Below, piece after piece: positions 12,242-18,497 of a stretch of DNA of 64,000 nucleotides. The stretch's first letter is position 1. The number at the start of each line of letters is the position of its first letter. The DNA is taken from the sequence record PZ496580.1. The stretch is one strand, 5' to 3'. Under the pieces are notes generated by a model. That model was not told the origin of the DNA, did no database searches, and saw nothing but the letters and a program-made list of their open reading frames with translations. The position numbers and the translations under genes are program-made. Origin of the DNA: a phage.

Positions 12242-12796
12242 CTAAAAATTTTTAACACCATATTCACCAAAATAAAGATCAACCGCTTTGTCATAAGCTC
12301 TGGCCGCATCTTCTTCGTTGACATAATACCCAAGAGATATTAGTTTATCATTATTTCGTATTCTTGCAACCCATTTCTTCGTATGTTTATGCCAGCTAAC
12401 CCCTTTATACTTGCTTGCTTTATTCTTGTACTTTCCAACGTTACAAGCATTTTTCTTTGCGTCGGACTCTCTAAGATTGCGCGGTGCGTTGTTTAAAGGA
12501 TTTCGGTCTATATGATCTATAATTTCTGGTTGTGTTCCATGCTCAAGAAACCATACAATACGATGTACATATGGCTTTAAAACCCTCCCATTATCCATAA
12601 CAATTGCAATTTGGAGATGATCCTGACTTTTAAAAGTTTTTACTTTATCTCCTGCCTTATAAAACTTTCCTTCGTAATTCTTTCCTCCGGCTCGGCTATT
12701 CTTTAAATGATAAAGAATACCATCGTCGTCATGTCTATATCTTTCTCGTATAATTCGTTGCGTTTCTTCATCCCACAATTTGGAACGTCTACTCAT
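12242..12796 (-). CDS. HNH homing endonuclease with C-terminal AP2 DNA-binding domain
   Basis: HNH core IDHIDRNPLNNAPRNLR; AP2-like YKGVSWHKHTKKWVARIRNNDKLISLGYYVNEEDAARAYDKA; free-standing 6 nt upstream of gene 47. Confidence 0.8.
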   Translation of the reverse strand: MSRRSKLWDEETQRIIRERYRHDDDGILYHLKNSRAGGKNYEGKFYKAGDKVKTFKSQDHLQIAIVMDNGRVLKPYVHRIVWFLEHGTQPEIIDHIDRNPLNNAPRNLRESDAKKNACNVGKYKNKASKYKGVSWHKHTKKWVARIRNNDKLISLGYYVNEEDAARAYDKAVDLYFGEYGVKNF

Positions 12797-13175: not shown

Positions 13176-13409
13176 TTATTTTCCTTCTGGGATATAGTCG
13201 ATGATTAAAGAAAATTCATCTTCTGATACATTATAGCTATGTGAGATTGTACCCGTAAAGACCTCAAGGTCCGGTGATTTGATATTGCACGGATCGATAA
13301 TCACCGGAACGCCGCAATCTCTCAAAAATAATTTGGCGAAATACGGCACAAGGTCAGTTTCAAACTCTGCTTCTTCCAGCAAACGGGAAATGTTAATTTT
13401 CAATCTCAT
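13176..13409 (-). CDS. hypothetical protein
   Basis: 77-aa ORF immediately downstream of gene 55. Confidence 0.45.
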
Positions 13410-13926
13410 AAAATTGGTCCAGGCTAGGCAATTCCTCGGTCAATACATCTTCAACCTTTGGCGCTTTCGGTTTATTGACCGATTCCTCGTAGTTGTTGAT
13501 TTTATCGTAAATGTCCTGTATGAATGCCTCATCCGCAATCTGGCACATATCAGCGTCGCGTTCGTCATATACATGATGCACAAAATATTTGTATTTTGCG
13601 GCGGTTGCTGTTCTTTCTTTTTTAATGCGCTGTACAAAGGCATTAAAGCACGCTTGCGTAATGTAAGCATGAGGATTTTTATACTTTGTCTCGTCAAAAT
13701 TAATCAAACCCTTGACCGCCGCTTCGATTCCATCGTCGATCATTTCTTCGCGCCACGTTTGACTATAGCCAGAAAAGTTAAAACGCCGTGATAGATTTTT
13801 AGAGATTTGCATAATTGCTAGGCCGATTTGGTCGCTCATTGGCACTTGTCGACCTTCGGCTGCAATTCGTTGTTTCCAACGGCAAATTTCTTCGTAAAGC
13901 TCTTTATTGTTTACATAATCAGACAC
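13393..13926 (-). CDS. 55: late-promoter sigma factor gp55
   Basis: 177 aa; recalled T4 gp55 similarity ([55 protein letters not shown]). Confidence 0.9.
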
Positions 13927-13966: not shown

Positions 13967-15436
13967 CTATTCCCCATTACCATTATACTTTCTTTGCTTA
14001 GTTATCCACACTCTAACCATCTCTACAGATTCGCCGTCAGACGGATCAAGAGTTTTTCCTTTTTTCTTCATGCGGTACTTAAATCCGTTAAATCTTGCAT
14101 TCTCTTGCTCGTTAAAGTCGAACATCTTTTTAAATGATTTTCGCCCTTTACGCTCACCGCATTCTAGAGGAATCATTCGGTCTGTTATTACATTGGCATT
14201 AGGTAGAAACGTTTTTAGATAATCTACCAACGCCCAATCAGGAACATATAGATTAACATTCTCCTTGCTCTCGTTGTCTCTCAGGTTACAACGCAAACAT
14301 AATTGAAATGCTGGTTCCAGATAATCAGACACATGACGCGCTTTCAAAAACTCGTTTGTTGGGAGATCGCAACTATTAGCAAGACCTTTTAAAATATCAA
14401 TCTCCCATCGTTGAGGGTTAAAGCTGAACATCACAGCAACATTTTTATGATGAATGTAAGAGTTAAGACCATAAGATCCGTAAGGTATCCGCTCACCAAT
14501 ACCATTTGTGCACGCTTCTCGGTCCCGATTCACGGTATAAATGAAGTCATCACCACATTCATTTTTAACCATATCAACAAGACGTTCAAAGGTATTGTTT
14601 GTTTCTGACTGGTGACGCGACCATCGTTCAGAGTCCGTCATAAGGATGATATTAACTCTATCTGTATTTTTATACTCTTTGAAATATAGTCTGGATTCTA
14701 GCGCACTCGGAACAAAATCACAATTTGCATAGTATCGTAGATACTTCCCACTATATGTATCAAAGAGATTTGCACATGCTATCGTAACCTTTTTAAAGTC
14801 TCCCCACGTACCGTGTTTGTTATCGTTCAAGAAAACAATTTTCGACCCATTCTTCCGGTGGCCTTCGTTATGTTTTACCATAACGTTGATTTTCTTCTCT
14901 AATAACGCCTCATAAAGCCCTCTAAGAGAAGAATCGATCATATCAGTACCATCCTTTGCACTTTCTATCTTTTCTTTGATAGCGGCCTTCTCAGAGTCTT
15001 TTAGAACTAAGTTCTGTAGGCATTCCGATTCGTCGGCGATTGGTTCGCAATGCTTCGTGATAAGTTCAAGATTAGACTTAAACGGATACTCATTAAATTC
15101 AACCAGTTGAGGAACTTCATCAATGTAAAGAGCATAATCACCAAACATTTTTGAACGTTCCATATTAGATAACGCTGTATGTGTAATGAATATCACATCA
15201 GCACCATCTTTAACTGATTGCATTATCGACGCTTGCACTGTCTTAAGGCTTCTTAGTCTTGTGCTATCAATCAAGACAGCACGACCGCCCATTCTTTTAA
15301 ACTTATTGTAAGATTGTTCACTTAAAACACGAGATGGCGAAGCAATAACCGCTTTTTCTTTTGTCTCTAGGACGTGGGAAAGTATAGCATCAGTTTTCCC
15401 CGCCGCTGGCAATGCGATTAATGTTTCAATCTTCAT
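13967..15436 (-). CDS. P-loop NTPase of unknown function (N-terminal Walker A, helicase-like motifs)
   Basis: 489 aa; N-terminal ALPAAGKTDAIL Walker A, downstream LYIDEVPQ Walker-B-like; no confident family assignment. Confidence 0.6.
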   Translation of the reverse strand: MKIETLIALPAAGKTDAILSHVLETKEKAVIASPSRVLSEQSYNKFKRMGGRAVLIDSTRLRSLKTVQASIMQSVKDGADVIFITHTALSNMERSKMFGDYALYIDEVPQLVEFNEYPFKSNLELITKHCEPIADESECLQNLVLKDSEKAAIKEKIESAKDGTDMIDSSLRGLYEALLEKKINVMVKHNEGHRKNGSKIVFLNDNKHGTWGDFKKVTIACANLFDTYSGKYLRYYANCDFVPSALESRLYFKEYKNTDRVNIILMTDSERWSRHQSETNNTFERLVDMVKNECGDDFIYTVNRDREACTNGIGERIPYGSYGLNSYIHHKNVAVMFSFNPQRWEIDILKGLANSCDLPTNEFLKARHVSDYLEPAFQLCLRCNLRDNESKENVNLYVPDWALVDYLKTFLPNANVITDRMIPLECGERKGRKSFKKMFDFNEQENARFNGFKYRMKKKGKTLDPSDGESVEMVRVWITKQRKYNGNGE

Positions 15437-15741
15437 TAGAAACCCTTACGTCGTGCTTTCTGACATTTCTTGATCATTTTATCAGAAATTTCGCGCTTCG
15501 GTGCAATCTCTTTCACACCGAAAGCACTAATGCCAAATTCAGAGAGAATATATTCAACCAACAATTCACGCACACGCGCTTTACCGATATTCACGCCGTT
15601 ATTTTTCAGATATGTCTGGCCTTCGACTTGCATCAGATCTAAATCCGCGTCGGTAATATTGATTTCTTCCATGCGCCCAAATCGAGAATAAACCATGTGT
15701 GCGATTGCATTGTGTACTAACATAATATATTCCTCACTCAA
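15436..15741 (-). CDS. hypothetical protein
   Basis: 101-aa ORF. Confidence 0.5.
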   Translation of the reverse strand: MSEEYIMLVHNAIAHMVYSRFGRMEEINITDADLDLMQVEGQTYLKNNGVNIGKARVRELLVEYILSEFGISAFGVKEIAPKREISDKMIKKCQKARRKGF

Positions 15742-15744
15742 GAA

Positions 15745-15903
15745 TTACTTAATGATACTTACTTTACCAGATCCGTGACAATGAGCGCAACACCCATCAC
15801 CACGCAATCCTGTTCCGTTACAGTGTTTACACGTCTTCAACGGTAAAGCCATTATAGCAAATAAAGCAATAATGAACACCGAAACTAAATTCTCAATAAT
15901 CAT
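15745..15903 (-). CDS. small membrane-anchored protein with two CxxCxGxG zinc-finger motifs (not in ORF track, 52 aa)
   Basis: hand translation MIIENLVSVFIIALFAIMALPLKTCKHCNGTGLRGDGCCAHCHGSGKVSIIK. Confidence 0.4.
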   Translation of the reverse strand: MIIENLVSVFIIALFAIMALPLKTCKHCNGTGLRGDGCCAHCHGSGKVSIIK

Positions 15904-16162
15904 AAATCGCCCTCAGTTCTTTATAGCCTCCAATGTGCTCGTTGTCAATGAATATCTGGGGGTATACAAATCGGAGGCTCTTTGAGTTCAGCCTCCCCGC
16001 CAGTTCTTCAATCATATCACGGTCGGGAATAATGTCAACCCCAACCTGCTTGAATACTGGTTTAAGTGTATACGGAATACCCAGATCATCCAGTAGCTTC
16101 ATTGCACTAATACAACCATAACAATGATAAGCCTCTTTCGGTATACCGTATATCTCGATCAT
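15893..16162 (-). CDS. nrdH: glutaredoxin-like protein (NrdH-type redoxin)
   Basis: 89 aa; CYGC active site and YPQIFIDNEHIGGY glutaredoxin signature. Confidence 0.75.
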   Translation of the reverse strand: MIEIYGIPKEAYHCYGCISAMKLLDDLGIPYTLKPVFKQVGVDIIPDRDMIEELAGRLNSKSLRFVYPQIFIDNEHIGGYKELRAIYDY

Positions 16163-16665
16163 TTCTCAGCCTTTAATCTTTCTAGTTCTTCTTCCAGTTC
16201 CTTAATGCGCTTCTCGCGTTCAATATCACGTTGGATCTTAGTGGCGAATACTCGTTTAAACTGACTATAGTCATCAATTTTAAATACTTCCTCTTCACCA
16301 TATCGACGTACAGAAACTTCGTAGTTGTTGAAAAATTGTTCCAACATTGCATCAGTGGTCAGTTCTGCCGATACCACTTTAAAATGACGTTCTTCTGATT
16401 GCAAAAACCAGTTGTGCGCGTATTCCCGTACATCATCAACATTGCGGCAGGTGTATACCGTGCCATCAATTTCAATCGCAGAAACATAATCATCATCCGA
16501 TGCATGGTGATCAAATGCAATAACTTTAAATGGACGGTCGCCGATAAACTCTGCTATTGCATCATTTGCAACGCTAAAGTTTGCAAAATCTTTTCTCGTT
16601 TTCTTATCTTTCCACTGATAGGTCACGCCAGCAACAAACATATTACCATCCTCGCTCTTTACCAA
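16159..16665 (-). CDS. paralog-family protein (member A1), C-terminal coiled coil
   Basis: GVTYQWKDKKTRKDF ... RPFKVIAFD ... IEIDGTVYT module shared with neighbouring ORFs. Confidence 0.6.
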   Translation of the reverse strand: MVKSEDGNMFVAGVTYQWKDKKTRKDFANFSVANDAIAEFIGDRPFKVIAFDHHASDDDYVSAIEIDGTVYTCRNVDDVREYAHNWFLQSEERHFKVVSAELTTDAMLEQFFNNYEVSVRRYGEEEVFKIDDYSQFKRVFATKIQRDIEREKRIKELEEELERLKAEK

Positions 16666-17467
16666 TCAAAAATTCAACTTCACGACGTTTAATGTCTTCT
16701 TGAAGGTCTTTAATCTTCTGTCGATCTTGCATGATTTCGTCCATCTTGTCAAGTGCTGCAATGAAATCATCGAAACGTTCAAAGGTTTTACCTTCATTTG
16801 CTTCGCTAAATTTAACCATAGTCAGACCGTAACGACTACTAAACAGACGTTTCAACTGTCCAACGATCTTAGAATCAGTGGTTATAACTTCCAATTCTTC
16901 TACTTCTTGAAAGAATTTTCTATCAGAATCAATAAACCAGCTAGTTCCTTTATGGTCTCTATCTCCGGTTGCGCTCATTAGAGTATGGTCTTTACCATCA
17001 ATTTCAATTACATCAATTTGCCCACATGGACTAACATTTTTAACAGTAAAAGGTCTATAATTTATTGCTCGTGCAATAACATAATTAAGGTTAGATACGT
17101 TTTCAGCATAATGGCAGAAGTCGGTCATAGCCTTCGCATCTTTCCAAGTATAAGTTTTACCAACTTCCCATTTCTGGGGAACTTCTTCAACTTCACGAAA
17201 GAATTTTCTATCGAATGGACTAAAGAAATATGTTGCAGTCCAAATGTCTTTTCCTGTAGCAGTTTTCGCCGTATGATAAACACCGTCTAGCTCTATTGCA
17301 TTAATCCAACCGTTACCCTCGATCTCGATGATGGTAAATGGCTTGTCACCAATAGCTGCACTAATATCGCTGTTAAGTGGAGAAAGAACACCTTCTCCGT
17401 TAGTAATAAACTCAGTTTTAGCGTTTTCATCTTTCCAAGTGTAAGTTTTACCAATTTCCCATTTCAT
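16643..17467 (-). CDS. paralog-family protein (member A2, two tandem copies of the module)
   Basis: WEIGKTYTWKDENAKTEF and WEVGKTYTWKDAKAMTDF repeats each followed by ..PFT.. IEIDG .. DRKFF.EVEE. Confidence 0.6.
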   Translation of the reverse strand: MKWEIGKTYTWKDENAKTEFITNGEGVLSPLNSDISAAIGDKPFTIIEIEGNGWINAIELDGVYHTAKTATGKDIWTATYFFSPFDRKFFREVEEVPQKWEVGKTYTWKDAKAMTDFCHYAENVSNLNYVIARAINYRPFTVKNVSPCGQIDVIEIDGKDHTLMSATGDRDHKGTSWFIDSDRKFFQEVEELEVITTDSKIVGQLKRLFSSRYGLTMVKFSEANEGKTFERFDDFIAALDKMDEIMQDRQKIKDLQEDIKRREVEFLIGKERGW

Positions 17468-17479
17468 AATATATTCCCC

Positions 17480-17959
17480 TTAACCGATTTTATCAAGTTC
17501 GTTTAATGCTTTCTCTGCTTCCTGTATAGCTTGCACCCTTTCCGGCATTTTGTCAAGAAAATCTTTCAACTCTTCAAAACTGGAGATATGACGCAAGGCA
17601 TTAGCACCGATAGCCGCATGTGATTTGCATTCAAAGCGAATTTTATAATTATCCATCGCCAACTTGAGAAGATCAATTAGTTTAGATTCTTCTGGAATAA
17701 TAATTTCTTCAAATCTGCTACGGTCGTGATCCAGAAACCAACAAGATAGACCTACATCGGTTGAACTCATATAAGTTCCATCATGAAGATATACAGATCG
17801 CACGTATCCTTTTTTCGCATCAACCGACGCAACTTTAAACGGTAATCTCAGATATTTCAAATAATCAACATCATACCATTTAAAAAATTGGTTTGCATCT
17901 TTTACATCTTTCCACGCATAGGTCTTACCAGCTTCCCATTTCATAATATCATCTCTCAT
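17480..17959 (-). CDS. paralog-family protein (member A3)
   Basis: WEAGKTYAWKDVKDANQFF module, helical C-terminus. Confidence 0.6.
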   Translation of the reverse strand: MRDDIMKWEAGKTYAWKDVKDANQFFKWYDVDYLKYLRLPFKVASVDAKKGYVRSVYLHDGTYMSSTDVGLSCWFLDHDRSRFEEIIIPEESKLIDLLKLAMDNYKIRFECKSHAAIGANALRHISSFEELKDFLDKMPERVQAIQEAEKALNELDKIG

Positions 17960-18497
17960 TTTTGATACGTGATTCTAATTGGATCATACGGTCGCGCGTT
18001 TGCTTGTATTCGCGGATAGCACCGATACGGCTAGGCATACCATTTAGAACGCTCTTAATACCTTCTAGGGTAGTAATTTTAGCAATGCTATTATGTAACC
18101 CCATCTTATCGATTAACTGAATATCGTAGGCTTCCATAAGCAGACCCAGACGTTCTAAGGTTAAATCTTGTTCTTTATCTTCTTCCTTTTCTTCCGGTTC
18201 TGGGATTTCTTTGTTAATAGTAGCTTCGGTAAAGAAACGACGCTCACCTGCCCAAAACCACACACCGGAAAAGCCAATAGGGGATTCTTTTAACGTCATA
18301 GAGTCGTAACCACTGCCGATAATAGTAATTTCTCTAACATCACCATCATCGTCAATGTCTTCTACCCTAAACGGGCGACCAGCCAACAAGTCCACAATAC
18401 ATCTGTTAATAGACGACGAAAATTTAGTCAGTTCGGCTTTCGACGCTTCGCATTCAATCTTGTAAGTTTTACCAACTTCCCATTCCATAATAATCAC
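17949..18497 (-). CDS. paralog-family protein (member A4)
   Basis: WEVGKTYKIECEASKAELTKF ... RPFRVEDID module, acidic linker, helical C-terminus. Confidence 0.6.
   Translation of the reverse strand: MIIMEWEVGKTYKIECEASKAELTKFSSSINRCIVDLLAGRPFRVEDIDDDGDVREITIIGSGYDSMTLKESPIGFSGVWFWAGERRFFTEATINKEIPEPEEKEEDKEQDLTLERLGLLMEAYDIQLIDKMGLHNSIAKITTLEGIKSVLNGMPSRIGAIREYKQTRDRMIQLESRIKNER

What the first reader, a model, noticed from the sequence alone, without database searches (positions are those of the whole stretch)
13967..15436. 489-aa P-loop NTPase of unknown family between gene 55 and nrdH
A large early ORF has an N-terminal Walker A (ALPAAGKTDAIL) and a Walker-B/DExx-like LYIDEVPQ, but no recognisable helicase C-terminal motifs and no similarity I can place to T4 proteins of this interval. 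Its size and ATPase signature make it the largest uncharacterised enzyme candidate in the window.
Basis: seen in the sequence. Interest (0 to 1): 0.55.

Follow-up and report, generated by a model that had tools for sequence, protein, structure and literature searches.

The report
Extra uncharacterised helicase in RB49-like phages
The 489-aa ORF is a real and complete, but experimentally uncharacterised, superfamily-2 helicase carried as an accessory gene by about one in eight T4-like phages; its closest solved structural neighbours are XPD/DinG DNA helicases, and its bacterial sister lineage is fused to a primase, which points to a role in DNA replication or recombination.

Summary
ORF 13967..15436 (minus strand, 489 aa) lies between gene 55 and nrdH in a Krischvirus (RB49/JSE/Phi1-like) genome, and its Walker A and DExx motifs are invariant across 42 homologues.

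The C-terminal half is not motif-less. It holds a second RecA domain with an invariant GLN motif and a motif VI-like Q378-x3-R382-x3-R386.

The protein is unrelated to T4 UvsW, which Krischvirus Phi1 encodes separately. It occurs in 244 of about 1,881 gp55-encoding phage records. Its start codon usually overlaps the stop of the gene for the 55.2-type topoisomerase I inhibitor.

The family was probably flagged as a putative "virus/plasmid helicase" in 2018 but has never been characterised.

Best reading: an accessory DNA helicase for replication or recombination. Its polarity and substrate are inferred, not shown.

The parts
13967..15436 (-). Gene for the 489-aa SF2 helicase (56 kDa, pI 8.15); stop codon TAG at 13967-13969
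   Evidence: the ORF listing; PHROG 2467 E=2.9e-175; 42 homologues; AF2 model pLDDT 87.7; mass and pI
15392..15415 (-). Motif I / Walker A, residues 8-15 ALPAAGKT. The P-loop starts 8 residues from the N-terminus, which leaves no room for a Q motif.
   Evidence: P10, G13, K14, T15 invariant; G13/K14 invariant also in the wider family
15311..15340 (-). Motif Ia-like, residues 33-42 SPSRVLSEQS
   Evidence: S33, L38, S42 invariant, Q41 >=90%; aligns with PTRELAxQ of DDX52 in the profile search
15107..15130 (-). Motif II / Walker B, residues 103-110 LYIDEVPQ (DExx)
   Evidence: L103, D106, E107, P109 invariant; D/E invariant in the wider family
14792..15106 (-). Insertion of about 105 residues (111-215) in RecA domain 1 between motifs II and III, at the position where XPD/DinG helicases carry the Arch domain; mixed alpha/beta, acidic
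14768..14788 (-). Motif III-like, residues 217-223 VTIACAN (beta strand ending RecA domain 1)
   Evidence: T218, N223 >=90% conserved; strand 216-221 in the model. The motif assignment is my reading.
14177..14719 (-). RecA domain 2, residues about 240-420, including motif V-like YGLNSY (residues 322-327, nt 14456-14473) and the invariant VPD (398-400)
   Evidence: G323, N325, V398, P399, D400 invariant; G/N invariant in the wider family; fold matches to helicase C-terminal domains
14279..14317 (-). Motif VI-like, residues 374-386 EPAFQLCLRCNLR: Q378-x3-R382-x3-R386 (candidate arginine fingers)
   Evidence: P375, F377, Q378, L379, C380, R382, R386 invariant; Q/R/R invariant in the long forms and intermediate forms
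13970..14176 (-). Basic C-terminal tail, residues 421-489: a low-confidence linker (426-431) then two helices (443-458, 468-486); invariant E445 and W477. It occupies the place where the sister lineage carries a primase domain.
   Evidence: Net charge +7 here, family median +8 and pI 10.1, against -8 and pI 5.6 for the core; model
15436..15741 (-). Upstream gene for a gp55.2-like protein (101 aa from TTG, or 95 aa from the ATG used in W115). Its TAA stop overlaps the helicase ATG (TAATG), which suggests translational coupling.
   Evidence: Sequence; phrog_1475; annotated gp55.2 in JSE, Phi1, RB16, Aeh1, phage 65 and PX29; the same adjacency holds in RB16 and L003

Best explanation
The ORF encodes an active, monomer-sized superfamily-2 nucleic-acid motor. 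It has two RecA-like domains with a complete catalytic set (Walker A K14, DExx D106/E107, motif VI-like Q378/R382/R386). An insertion of about 105 residues sits in domain 1 at the position of the XPD/DinG Arch domain. There is no iron-sulfur cluster, and the protein ends in a basic tail of about 65 residues. I infer that it is an ATP-driven DNA translocase/helicase that loads on single-stranded DNA and unwinds branched or hybrid intermediates (forks, D-loops, R-loops) during phage DNA replication and recombination. It would probably move 5' to 3', as its nearest structural neighbours do. It acts as a fourth, accessory helicase beside the core gp41, Dda and UvsW. It is expressed before late genes and is usually co-translated with the gp55.2-type inhibitor of host topoisomerase I. 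The basic tail is proposed to bind DNA or an acidic partner such as the gp32 C-terminus. Shown here: gene reality, conservation, motif set, fold class, distribution, gene neighbourhood, and primase fusion in the sister lineage. Inferred: DNA rather than RNA as substrate, polarity, role in replication or recombination, and tail function.
Confidence: 0.6

Rival explanations
1. It is a replication-initiator helicase that works like herpesvirus UL9 or a plasmid Rep. The basic C-terminal tail recognises an origin or an R-loop/D-loop, and the motor opens DNA so that the phage primosome (gp41-gp61 loaded by gp59) can assemble. In the bacterial sister lineage the fused AEP primase makes the first primer itself.
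For: Helicase-primase fusion occurs in the sister lineage, within integrated elements that need their own replication start. Kazlauskas et al. 2018 relate the SPbeta group of this family to the UL9 origin-binding protein, and SPbeta YonV does match my family profile (hhalign 97.7%). The tail is basic. The nearest non-T4 relatives sit beside a gene-free, AT-rich, repeat-bearing stretch of 1.2-1.8 kb where transcription direction flips and cumulative GC skew peaks.
Against: No origin is known or detected next to the gene in this window. Pfam Herpes_ori_bp (PF02399) is not hit by the phage protein, YonV or intermediate members at E <= 1. The tail is only about 65 residues with no recognisable DNA-binding fold. 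The repeats in L015 and L016 could equally be promoters or operators, and I did not pursue them.
Confidence: 0.15
2. It is a counter-defence or inter-element competition factor: a helicase that strips or disarms host immunity complexes (for example R-loop-forming CRISPR effectors or DNA-scanning defence motors), or that acts against co-infecting elements. On this reading it is not a replication enzyme.
For: Distribution is patchy and lineage-specific (244 of about 1,881 gp55-encoding records). The gene lies in a variable early region beside host-modulating small genes such as 55.2. Distant relatives sit repeatedly next to orphan DNA methyltransferases, which are typical anti-restriction cargo. 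Structural neighbours include the defence helicases CasDinG, DdmD and Hna.
Against: There is no PADLOC hit above noise and no known anti-defence family is matched. Within the lineages that have the gene it is retained and syntenic: Aeromonas-named records number 77 for the helicase and 77 for gp55, and the 55.2-helicase pair is kept at about 35% identity. That pattern is unlike fast-turnover anti-defence genes. The primase fusion of the sister lineage points to DNA synthesis.
Confidence: 0.12
3. It is an RNA helicase or RNP remodeller (DEAD-box-like) acting on phage or host transcripts or ribosomes.
For: The only Pfam family above its cutoff is DEAD. Sequence-profile hits to solved structures are led by DEAD-box proteins DDX52 and Prp5. 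Neighbouring paralogous ORFs weakly resemble the goF mRNA-metabolism modulator.
Against: These hits cover only motifs I-II, which all SF2 proteins share. The protein lacks the Q motif (the P-loop begins at residue 8), has DEVP rather than DEAD, and has (C/S)AN rather than SAT. Full-length fold matches favour DNA helicases of the XPD/DinG type by 4 Z units and about 90 more aligned residues. Relatives are fused to a DNA primase-polymerase.
Confidence: 0.06
4. It is a DNA-dependent ATPase that translocates or clamps but does not separate strands. It would work as a scaffold or remodeller, as reported for the helicase domain of the AEP-SF2 protein IEE.
For: IEE's SF2 domain has all seven motifs and ATPase activity but no unwinding, and it stabilises DNA for its AEP domain (PMC9943667). 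Many SF2 proteins are translocases rather than helicases.
Against: The phage protein has no polymerase partner domain to serve. Its closest structural neighbours (XPD, DinG, CasDinG) are genuine helicases. My data cannot separate this rival from the best explanation.
Confidence: 0.07

Closest known systems
XPD/Rad3/DinG helicases (SF2 'Fe-S' or SF2B group), especially the cluster-less CasDinG of type IV-A CRISPR systems
[quoted passage not shown]
   Same: [quoted passage not shown] My family is in some T4-like phages, its profile finds SPbeta YonV (hhalign 97.7%, E 2.3e-12), and it has AEP-fused relatives.
   Different: I could not see their alignment (Fig. S5D is an image), so identity with pVOG1685 is inferred. 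Their fusions are Prim+zf-CHC2+helicase, with the primase N-terminal, in Bacillales. The fusions found here have the opposite order (helicase N-terminal, AEP C-terminal) and are alphaproteobacterial. Their UL9 similarity was not reproduced with HMMER.
T4 UvsW (and T5 D10), the core SF2 recombination/R-loop helicase of T4-like phages
   Same: An SF2 two-RecA motor of similar size, in the same type of phage, plausibly acting on branched DNA or R-loops.
IEE (IS-excision enhancer) and other AEP + SF2 helicase proteins of mobile elements
   Same: An AEP primase-polymerase combined with an SF2 motor in one polypeptide, on mobile DNA; comparable to the long forms of this family.
   Different: IEE has the AEP at the N-terminus and a RadD-like helicase domain. 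The phage protein has no AEP domain at all. Homology between IEE's helicase and this family was not tested.
Herpesvirus UL9 origin-binding helicase (Pfam PF02399)
   Same: An SF2 motor followed by a C-terminal nucleic-acid-binding part, encoded by a virus; named by Kazlauskas et al. as the nearest family to the SPbeta group.
   Different: No Pfam hit to PF02399 for any member tested. UL9 is about 850 aa with a large origin-binding domain (own knowledge), whereas here the tail is about 65 aa.

Membership tests
Superfamily 2 (SF2) helicases/translocases | Walker A (motif I, GxGKT/S) and Walker B (motif II, DExx) | tested here: met
   AAGKT at residues 11-15 and DEVP at 106-109. G13, K14, T15, D106 and E107 are invariant in 42 homologues and in the distant branches.
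Superfamily 2 (SF2) helicases/translocases | Two tandem RecA-like domains | tested here: met
Superfamily 2 (SF2) helicases/translocases | Motif VI with arginine finger(s) in domain 2 (QxxGRxxR-type) | tested here: met
   Q378, R382 and R386 are invariant, and the equivalent Q/R/R are invariant in A4 and A5. The spacing is Q-x3-R-x3-R, one residue longer than the classical motif. Their role as arginine fingers is inferred.
Superfamily 2 (SF2) helicases/translocases | Nucleic-acid-dependent NTPase and translocation or unwinding | not testable with these tools
   Needs biochemistry.
XPD/Rad3/DinG family (SF2B) | Sequence signature (Pfam DEAD_2 PF06733 and Helicase_C_2 PF13307) | tested here: not met
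   None of the 42 members hits either model at E <= 1. XPD appears only at E = 0.17 in the PDB profile search.
XPD/Rad3/DinG family (SF2B) | 4Fe-4S cluster domain (four Cys) inserted between motifs Ia and II | tested here: not met
   Only C130 and C380 are invariant, and there is no Cys in the 43-102 segment. CasDinG also lacks a functional cluster, so this alone does not exclude a relationship.
XPD/Rad3/DinG family (SF2B) | Arch domain inserted in RecA domain 1 between motifs II and III | tested here: inconclusive
   An insertion of 94-105 aa is present at that position in all members. XPD/DinG align over up to about 100 more residues than other SF2 proteins. No residue-level superposition was available to show that the insertion itself superposes on Arch.
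XPD/Rad3/DinG family (SF2B) | 5'-3' polarity on ssDNA | not testable with these tools
   Needs polarity assays with 5'- and 3'-tailed duplexes.
pVOG1685/9714 virus/plasmid helicase family (Kazlauskas et al. 2018) | [quoted passage not shown] | tested here: met
   The family is present in 244 phage records, nearly all T4-like. The broad profile matches SPbeta YonV at hhalign probability 97.7%, E 2.3e-12, over 366 columns, although hmmsearch alone finds nothing. Direct pVOG membership could not be looked up.
pVOG1685/9714 virus/plasmid helicase family (Kazlauskas et al. 2018) | Occurs fused to AEP primases in bacterial mobile elements | tested here: met
   109 of 237 relatives carry an AEP-fold domain, but with the opposite domain order to the published Prim+zf-CHC2+helicase architecture.
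pVOG1685/9714 virus/plasmid helicase family (Kazlauskas et al. 2018) | Similarity to herpesvirus UL9 (PF02399) | tested here: not met
   PF02399 is not hit at E <= 1 by the window protein, the 42 members, YonV or intermediate members. The published claim used more sensitive profile-profile methods and referred to pVOG9714.
DEAD-box RNA helicases | Q motif upstream of motif I, D-E-A-D motif II, SAT motif III, HRIGR motif VI | tested here: not met
   The P-loop starts at residue 8, so there is no room for a Q motif. Motif II is DEVP, motif III-like is (C/S)AN, and motif VI-like is QLCxRxxxR. The Pfam DEAD hit covers residues 11-130 only, at 27.3 bits against a cutoff of 26.
T4 core helicases (UvsW, Dda, gp41) | Detectable homology or positional orthology with the T4 gene | tested here: not met

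The most novel reading that the evidence does not exclude
The protein is the phage representative of a distinct, mobile-element-specific lineage of replication-initiation helicases. Its bacterial branch is a self-contained helicase-primase with an unusual order (SF2 motor first, AEP second). In RB49-, RB43- and Aeromonas-type T4 relatives it would form, together with the co-translated gp55.2 topoisomerase I inhibitor, a module that creates or exploits R-loops and negative supercoiling to fire replication by a route that T4 itself does not use.
Probability: 0.12. Interest if true: 0.7.

Novelty: new variant of a known kind. Interest (0 to 1): 0.4.

Why it matters
T4-type replication and recombination is one of the best-understood DNA-metabolism systems, with three canonical helicases. 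A fourth conserved helicase is found in records of Aeromonas T4-like phages (77 helicase records and 77 gp55 records) and in RB49- and RB43/RB16-type phages. Its presence shows that a sizeable part of the family runs a variant of that scheme which nobody has examined. The family also links phage biology to a large set of helicase-primase fusion proteins in bacterial genomic islands that is barely annotated (more than 1,300 representatives, mostly from metagenomes). These could be a new class of self-priming replication proteins for integrative elements. Practically, RB49-like Krischviruses are used in phage therapy collections, and this is their largest enzyme without a function. The protein is small, predicted with confidence and monomer-sized, so ATPase, polarity and knockout experiments are straightforward.

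Tried and rejected
1. Sequence searches against solved structures found nothing for the single protein or the family profile. The more diverse profiles A4 and A5 reached only generic SF2 motif I-II matches, so they gave no family assignment.
2. NCBIfam gave no hit and PADLOC gave only noise (RTasSLATT, E 0.009). I rejected the known-defence-protein reading.
3. The genome-contig scan returned two loci. L003 repeats the RB16 gene order, and L002 rests on similarity alone; both look like T4-like phage DNA inside 'bacterial' assemblies. This approach did not reach bacterial relatives.
4. tblastn of a long form against plasmids gave only three unannotated Sinorhizobium megaplasmid hits, which were not informative.
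5. The AEP-domain profile against PDB sequences gave only chance hits. The fold search was needed.
6. The idea that short relatives in bacteria have a separate primase gene next door was not supported. In L011 the downstream ORF is the post-DxD part of the AEP domain (hhalign E 8.7e-32), so that 'short form' is a split or frameshifted long form. In L013 the downstream ORF shows no similarity.
7. P0214 could not be located, and P0043's contig had no DNA available.
8. hmmsearch of SPbeta ORFs found nothing. Only hhalign with the 197-module profile found YonV.
9. The UL9 (PF02399) link was not reproducible with HMMER.
10. Promoter and terminator scans were no better than shuffled controls, and there is no TATAAATA nearby. 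I draw only the weak conclusion 'not obviously late'.
11. The literature on defence triggers (AbpAB; Retron-Eco11 with UvsW/D10) does not involve this gene.
12. In one search I trimmed the wrong end of the minus-strand reference and lost Met1. The alignment was redone as A2, and A2 is the one used throughout.
Full report
OBSERVATION. It begins MKIETLIALPAAGKTDAIL (Walker A at residues 8-15) and carries LYIDEVPQ at residues 103-110. Downstream lies the late sigma factor gp55 (13393..13926, phrog_234). Upstream lie a 101-aa gp55.2-like ORF (15436..15741, phrog_1475), a 52-aa ORF and an NrdH-type glutaredoxin (15893..16162, phrog_22). The window is a Krischvirus, the RB49/JSE/Phi1 group of Straboviridae: the 3.5-kb region is 95-99% identical to 59 phage records, and the protein is 100% identical to that of phage JSE. 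Base composition across the gene matches its surroundings.

IS IT A REAL GENE? Yes. A word-indexed search of 5.8 billion proteins returned 42 full-length homologues of 473-493 aa at 31-74% identity, from T4-like phages of Escherichia, Providencia, Proteus, Aeromonas and Enterobacter. The alignment has 54 invariant columns spread over the whole length. These include P10, G13, K14, T15 (Walker A), D106, E107, P109 (Walker B), G323 and N325, Q378, L379, C380, R382, R386, V398-P399-D400, and W477.

WHAT KIND OF PROTEIN? Libraries say little. Pfam DEAD covers residues 11-130 at 27.3 bits against a cutoff of 26. PHROG 2467 ('unknown function') matches at E = 2.9e-175. NCBIfam gives nothing, and PADLOC gives nothing credible. 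No solved structure is reachable by sequence.

Mapping conservation onto the predicted secondary structure gives the following layout:
- RecA domain 1 holds motif I (residues 8-15), a motif Ia-like SPSRVLSEQS (33-42), an ITHxAL strand (83-89) and motif II (103-110).
- An insertion spans residues 111-215.
- A motif III-like VTIACAN follows (217-223).
- RecA domain 2 (about 240-420) holds YGLNSY (322-327), the motif VI-like EPAFQLCLRCNLR (374-386) and VPD (398-400).
- A tail spans residues 421-489.

They are divergent but present, and invariant.

HOW CLOSE TO XPD/DinG? The protein resembles that family in architecture but is not a member. The insertion between motifs II and III is where XPD/DinG carry the Arch domain (established knowledge of the family). 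The extra residues that XPD/DinG align, up to about 100 more than other SF2 proteins, suggest that part of it superposes. I had no residue-level superposition, so this remains inconclusive.

The Fe-S domain is absent. Only two cysteines (C130, C380) are conserved, and the Ia-II segment is short. CasDinG, which has only a 'vestigial FeS' domain, is still a 5'-3' DNA and RNA/DNA helicase (PMC10450177). None of the 42 members hits the Pfam models that define the family (DEAD_2, Helicase_C_2), even at E <= 1. More diverse profiles reach only generic motif I-II matches in the PDB, such as DDX52, the reverse gyrase helicase domain and UvrB, with XPD at E = 0.17. The P-loop starts at residue 8, so there is no Q motif. 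I therefore treat this as a separate SF2 lineage whose nearest solved neighbours are XPD/DinG.

NOT A T4 CORE PROTEIN. Krischvirus Phi1 encodes its own UvsW at the canonical hoc-inh-uvsW-uvsY locus. The family profile shows no similarity to it (hhalign probability 0.3%). gp41, UvsW and Dda are the core helicases of T4-related genomes (PMC2993671, Table 3). This protein is therefore an additional helicase.

DISTRIBUTION. tblastn finds the protein in 244 of 50,697 phage records, whereas gp55 finds 1,881 records, so about 13% of gp55-encoding phages have it. By first word of the organism name, the helicase and gp55 counts are 77 and 77 for Aeromonas, 54 and 612 for Escherichia (Krischvirus and RB16/RB43-type Pseudotevenvirus), and 9 and 278 for Klebsiella. 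No Synechococcus or Cyanophage name appears among the ten most frequent organism names for the helicase, although they contribute 281 and 45 gp55 records. No T4 or other Tequatrovirus record appears in the identity bands: 59 records are >=95% identical (the Krischvirus group seen), and the other 185 are below 60%. It is a lineage-restricted accessory gene that is stably kept where it occurs.

NEIGHBOURHOOD. In the window the TAA stop of the 55.2-like ORF overlaps the helicase ATG (TAATG). The same 55.2-helicase pair, again overlapping, occurs in RB16, where the pair lies next to tail-fibre gene 34 rather than gene 55. It also occurs in L003, and annotations show it in JSE, Phi1, Aeh1, phage 65 and PX29. 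The pairing therefore survives at about 35% protein identity and through genome rearrangement. T4 gp55.2 is an inhibitor of E. coli topoisomerase I that increases phage fitness (PMC4396842). In Aeromonas phage 25 the overlapping upstream gene is instead a DprA-like recombination mediator (phrog_768), with 55.2 two genes further up. No T4-type late promoter (TATAAATA) lies within about 20 kb. Sigma-70-like sites are no more frequent than in shuffled sequence, so the expression class is only weakly inferred as pre-late.

THE WIDER FAMILY. An exhaustive profile search of 1.84 billion representatives gave 1,329 proteins at E <= 0.001 and 765 at E <= 1e-10, in two size classes (about 480-550 and about 750-890 aa). 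The long forms carry a C-terminal domain of about 300 aa with a conserved hhhDxDxGd...NsfS..nRfRvfIPt...GlDxSK..p.SlFYlPC pattern. It has no Pfam or PDB sequence match.

Local HMM classification of 237 collected relatives gives 109 with the AEP domain. A neighbour-joining tree of 197 helicase modules puts all 48 T4-like sequences in one clade, inside an 88-leaf clade with no AEP. All 86 AEP-fused sequences fall in the other branch (midpoint rooted, no support values). The long forms occur in Mesorhizobium, Bosea, Azospirillum, Agrobacterium and Methylocystaceae genomes and in the jumbo phage Atu_ph07. They sit beside a tyrosine integrase (L004), or among two N6/N4 methyltransferases, UmuDC, a Gabija-like AAA_21+UvrD pair and WYL regulators (L005-L007). 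That is the setting of integrated mobile elements. One apparent short form in such an island is a split long form.

PRIOR ART. Kazlauskas et al. 2018 (PMC5862659, section 'All3500 family') noted AEP primases whose C-terminal domains are 'only remotely similar to helicases of the superfamily 2'. [quoted passage not shown] Their alignment figure is not readable here.

As an indirect test I scanned all SPbeta ORFs. HMMER found nothing. hhalign with the 197-module profile matched YonV, a 410-aa hypothetical protein, over 366 columns at probability 97.7%, E = 2.3e-12. I conclude that the T4-like family studied here is very probably the one they flagged. Their proposed similarity of the SPbeta group to herpesvirus UL9 was not reproducible with HMMER/Pfam. 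Their fusions have the primase first (Prim+zf-CHC2+helicase, Bacillales). The alphaproteobacterial fusions found here have the helicase first, an arrangement I did not find described in the papers I read.

MECHANISM. Shown: a complete and conserved SF2 catalytic set, a two-RecA fold closest to 5'-3' DNA helicases, an accessory insertion in domain 1, a basic tail (family median net charge +8, pI 10.1, on a core of net charge -8), co-translation with a topoisomerase I inhibitor or a DprA-like protein, and a sister lineage fused to a DNA primase-polymerase.

Inferred: the protein hydrolyses ATP in response to ssDNA and translocates, probably 5'-3', to unwind forks, D-loops or R-loops during phage replication or recombination. 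The tail would anchor it to DNA or to an acidic partner.

I rate 'active SF2 nucleic-acid motor' at about 0.85, 'DNA rather than RNA' at about 0.8, 'replication/recombination accessory helicase' at about 0.5-0.6, and '5'-3' polarity' at about 0.55. Rivals are an origin- or R-loop-specific initiator (UL9-like logic), a counter-defence factor, an RNA helicase, and a non-unwinding translocase. None is excluded by my data, and the experiments that would separate them are listed under next steps.

VERDICT. The finding is real and the gene is worth an experiment, but it is not of an unknown kind. It is a divergent SF2 helicase lineage already hinted at in the literature, annotated as 'hypothetical protein' in nearly all of the 244 records and as 'putative helicase' in one. 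The most interesting by-product is the large, essentially unannotated family of helicase-first helicase-AEP fusions in bacterial islands. Interest 0.4; novelty: new variant of a known kind.

Noticed in passing
window 16159-18497 (minus strand): ORFs 16159-16665, 16643-17467, 17480-17959, 17949-18497: Four consecutive paralogous genes between nrdH and nrdG. Each carries one or two copies of a domain that starts W(E/K)xGKTYxWKD (the 274-aa ORF has two copies) and ends in a helical tail. The first matches phrog_5347 and, weakly, the 'goF mRNA metabolism modulator' family. This is a tandemly expanded family of unknown function.
   Followed up: no
window 12242-12796 (minus strand): A 184-aa HNH endonuclease (phrog_99, E 1.4e-50, with an AP2-like C-terminal part) sits between gene 47 and the 95-aa ORF. 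The related phage W115 has no gene at this position, so it looks like a polymorphic homing-endonuclease insertion.
   Followed up: partly
window 15745-15903 (minus strand): A 52-aa ORF between nrdH and 55.2 with an N-terminal hydrophobic helix, followed by CKHCNGTGLRGDGCCAHCHGSGKV, two CxxCxGxG repeats of the DnaJ zinc-finger type. It is annotated 'putative membrane protein' in W115.
   Followed up: no
L003 (NZ_JBHSCL010000010.1, 'Flagellimonas marina', 178,077-bp contig); L002 (Bacilli MAG, 43-kb contig); L012 ('Shewanella sp.' contig): Contigs filed under bacterial genomes carry the T4-like helicase (35-36% identity in L002 and L003). L003 also has a 55.2-like gene directly upstream and is the size of an RB16/RB43-type phage genome. 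L012 carries a Gp23 major capsid gene. These are probably phage genomes or contamination inside bacterial assemblies.
   Followed up: partly
L016:10488-12247 and L015:10497-11672: In two phage-like metagenomic contigs of about 140 kb, the nearest non-T4 relatives of the helicase follow an N6/N4 DNA methyltransferase. They are followed by a gene-free, AT-rich stretch of 1.2-1.8 kb where gene orientation flips. L016 has 3-4 copies of the palindrome TATAGCGTTGCTATA spaced 315-385 nt apart, and a peak of cumulative GC skew. L015 has three ATACCCC..AAAATATC repeats and a 39-nt inverted repeat. This could be an origin or a regulatory region.
   Followed up: partly
L004-L007, L010, L015, L016: Distant relatives of the helicase (both long and short forms) sit repeatedly next to orphan DNA methyltransferases: two N6_N4_Mtase genes in L005-L007, an adenine MTase in Atu_ph07, and one MTase directly upstream in each of L015 and L016. 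In L005 the same island also holds UmuDC, a Gabija-like AAA_21+UvrD pair and a WYL regulator.
   Followed up: no
L011:8001-10339: A 489-aa 'short' relative in an integrase-bearing island is followed, after a 190-nt gap, by a 226-aa ORF. That ORF is the post-DxD part of the AEP domain (hhalign E 8.7e-32). This is a split, frameshifted or decaying helicase-primase gene.
   Followed up: yes
L018:18251-19483 (SPbeta yonV): SPbeta YonV, annotated as a hypothetical protein, is a remote member of this helicase superfamily (hhalign 97.7%, E 2.3e-12 over 366 columns; weak Pfam ResIII hit at E 7e-4). It lies away from the SPbeta replication cluster yorG-yorL.
   Followed up: partly
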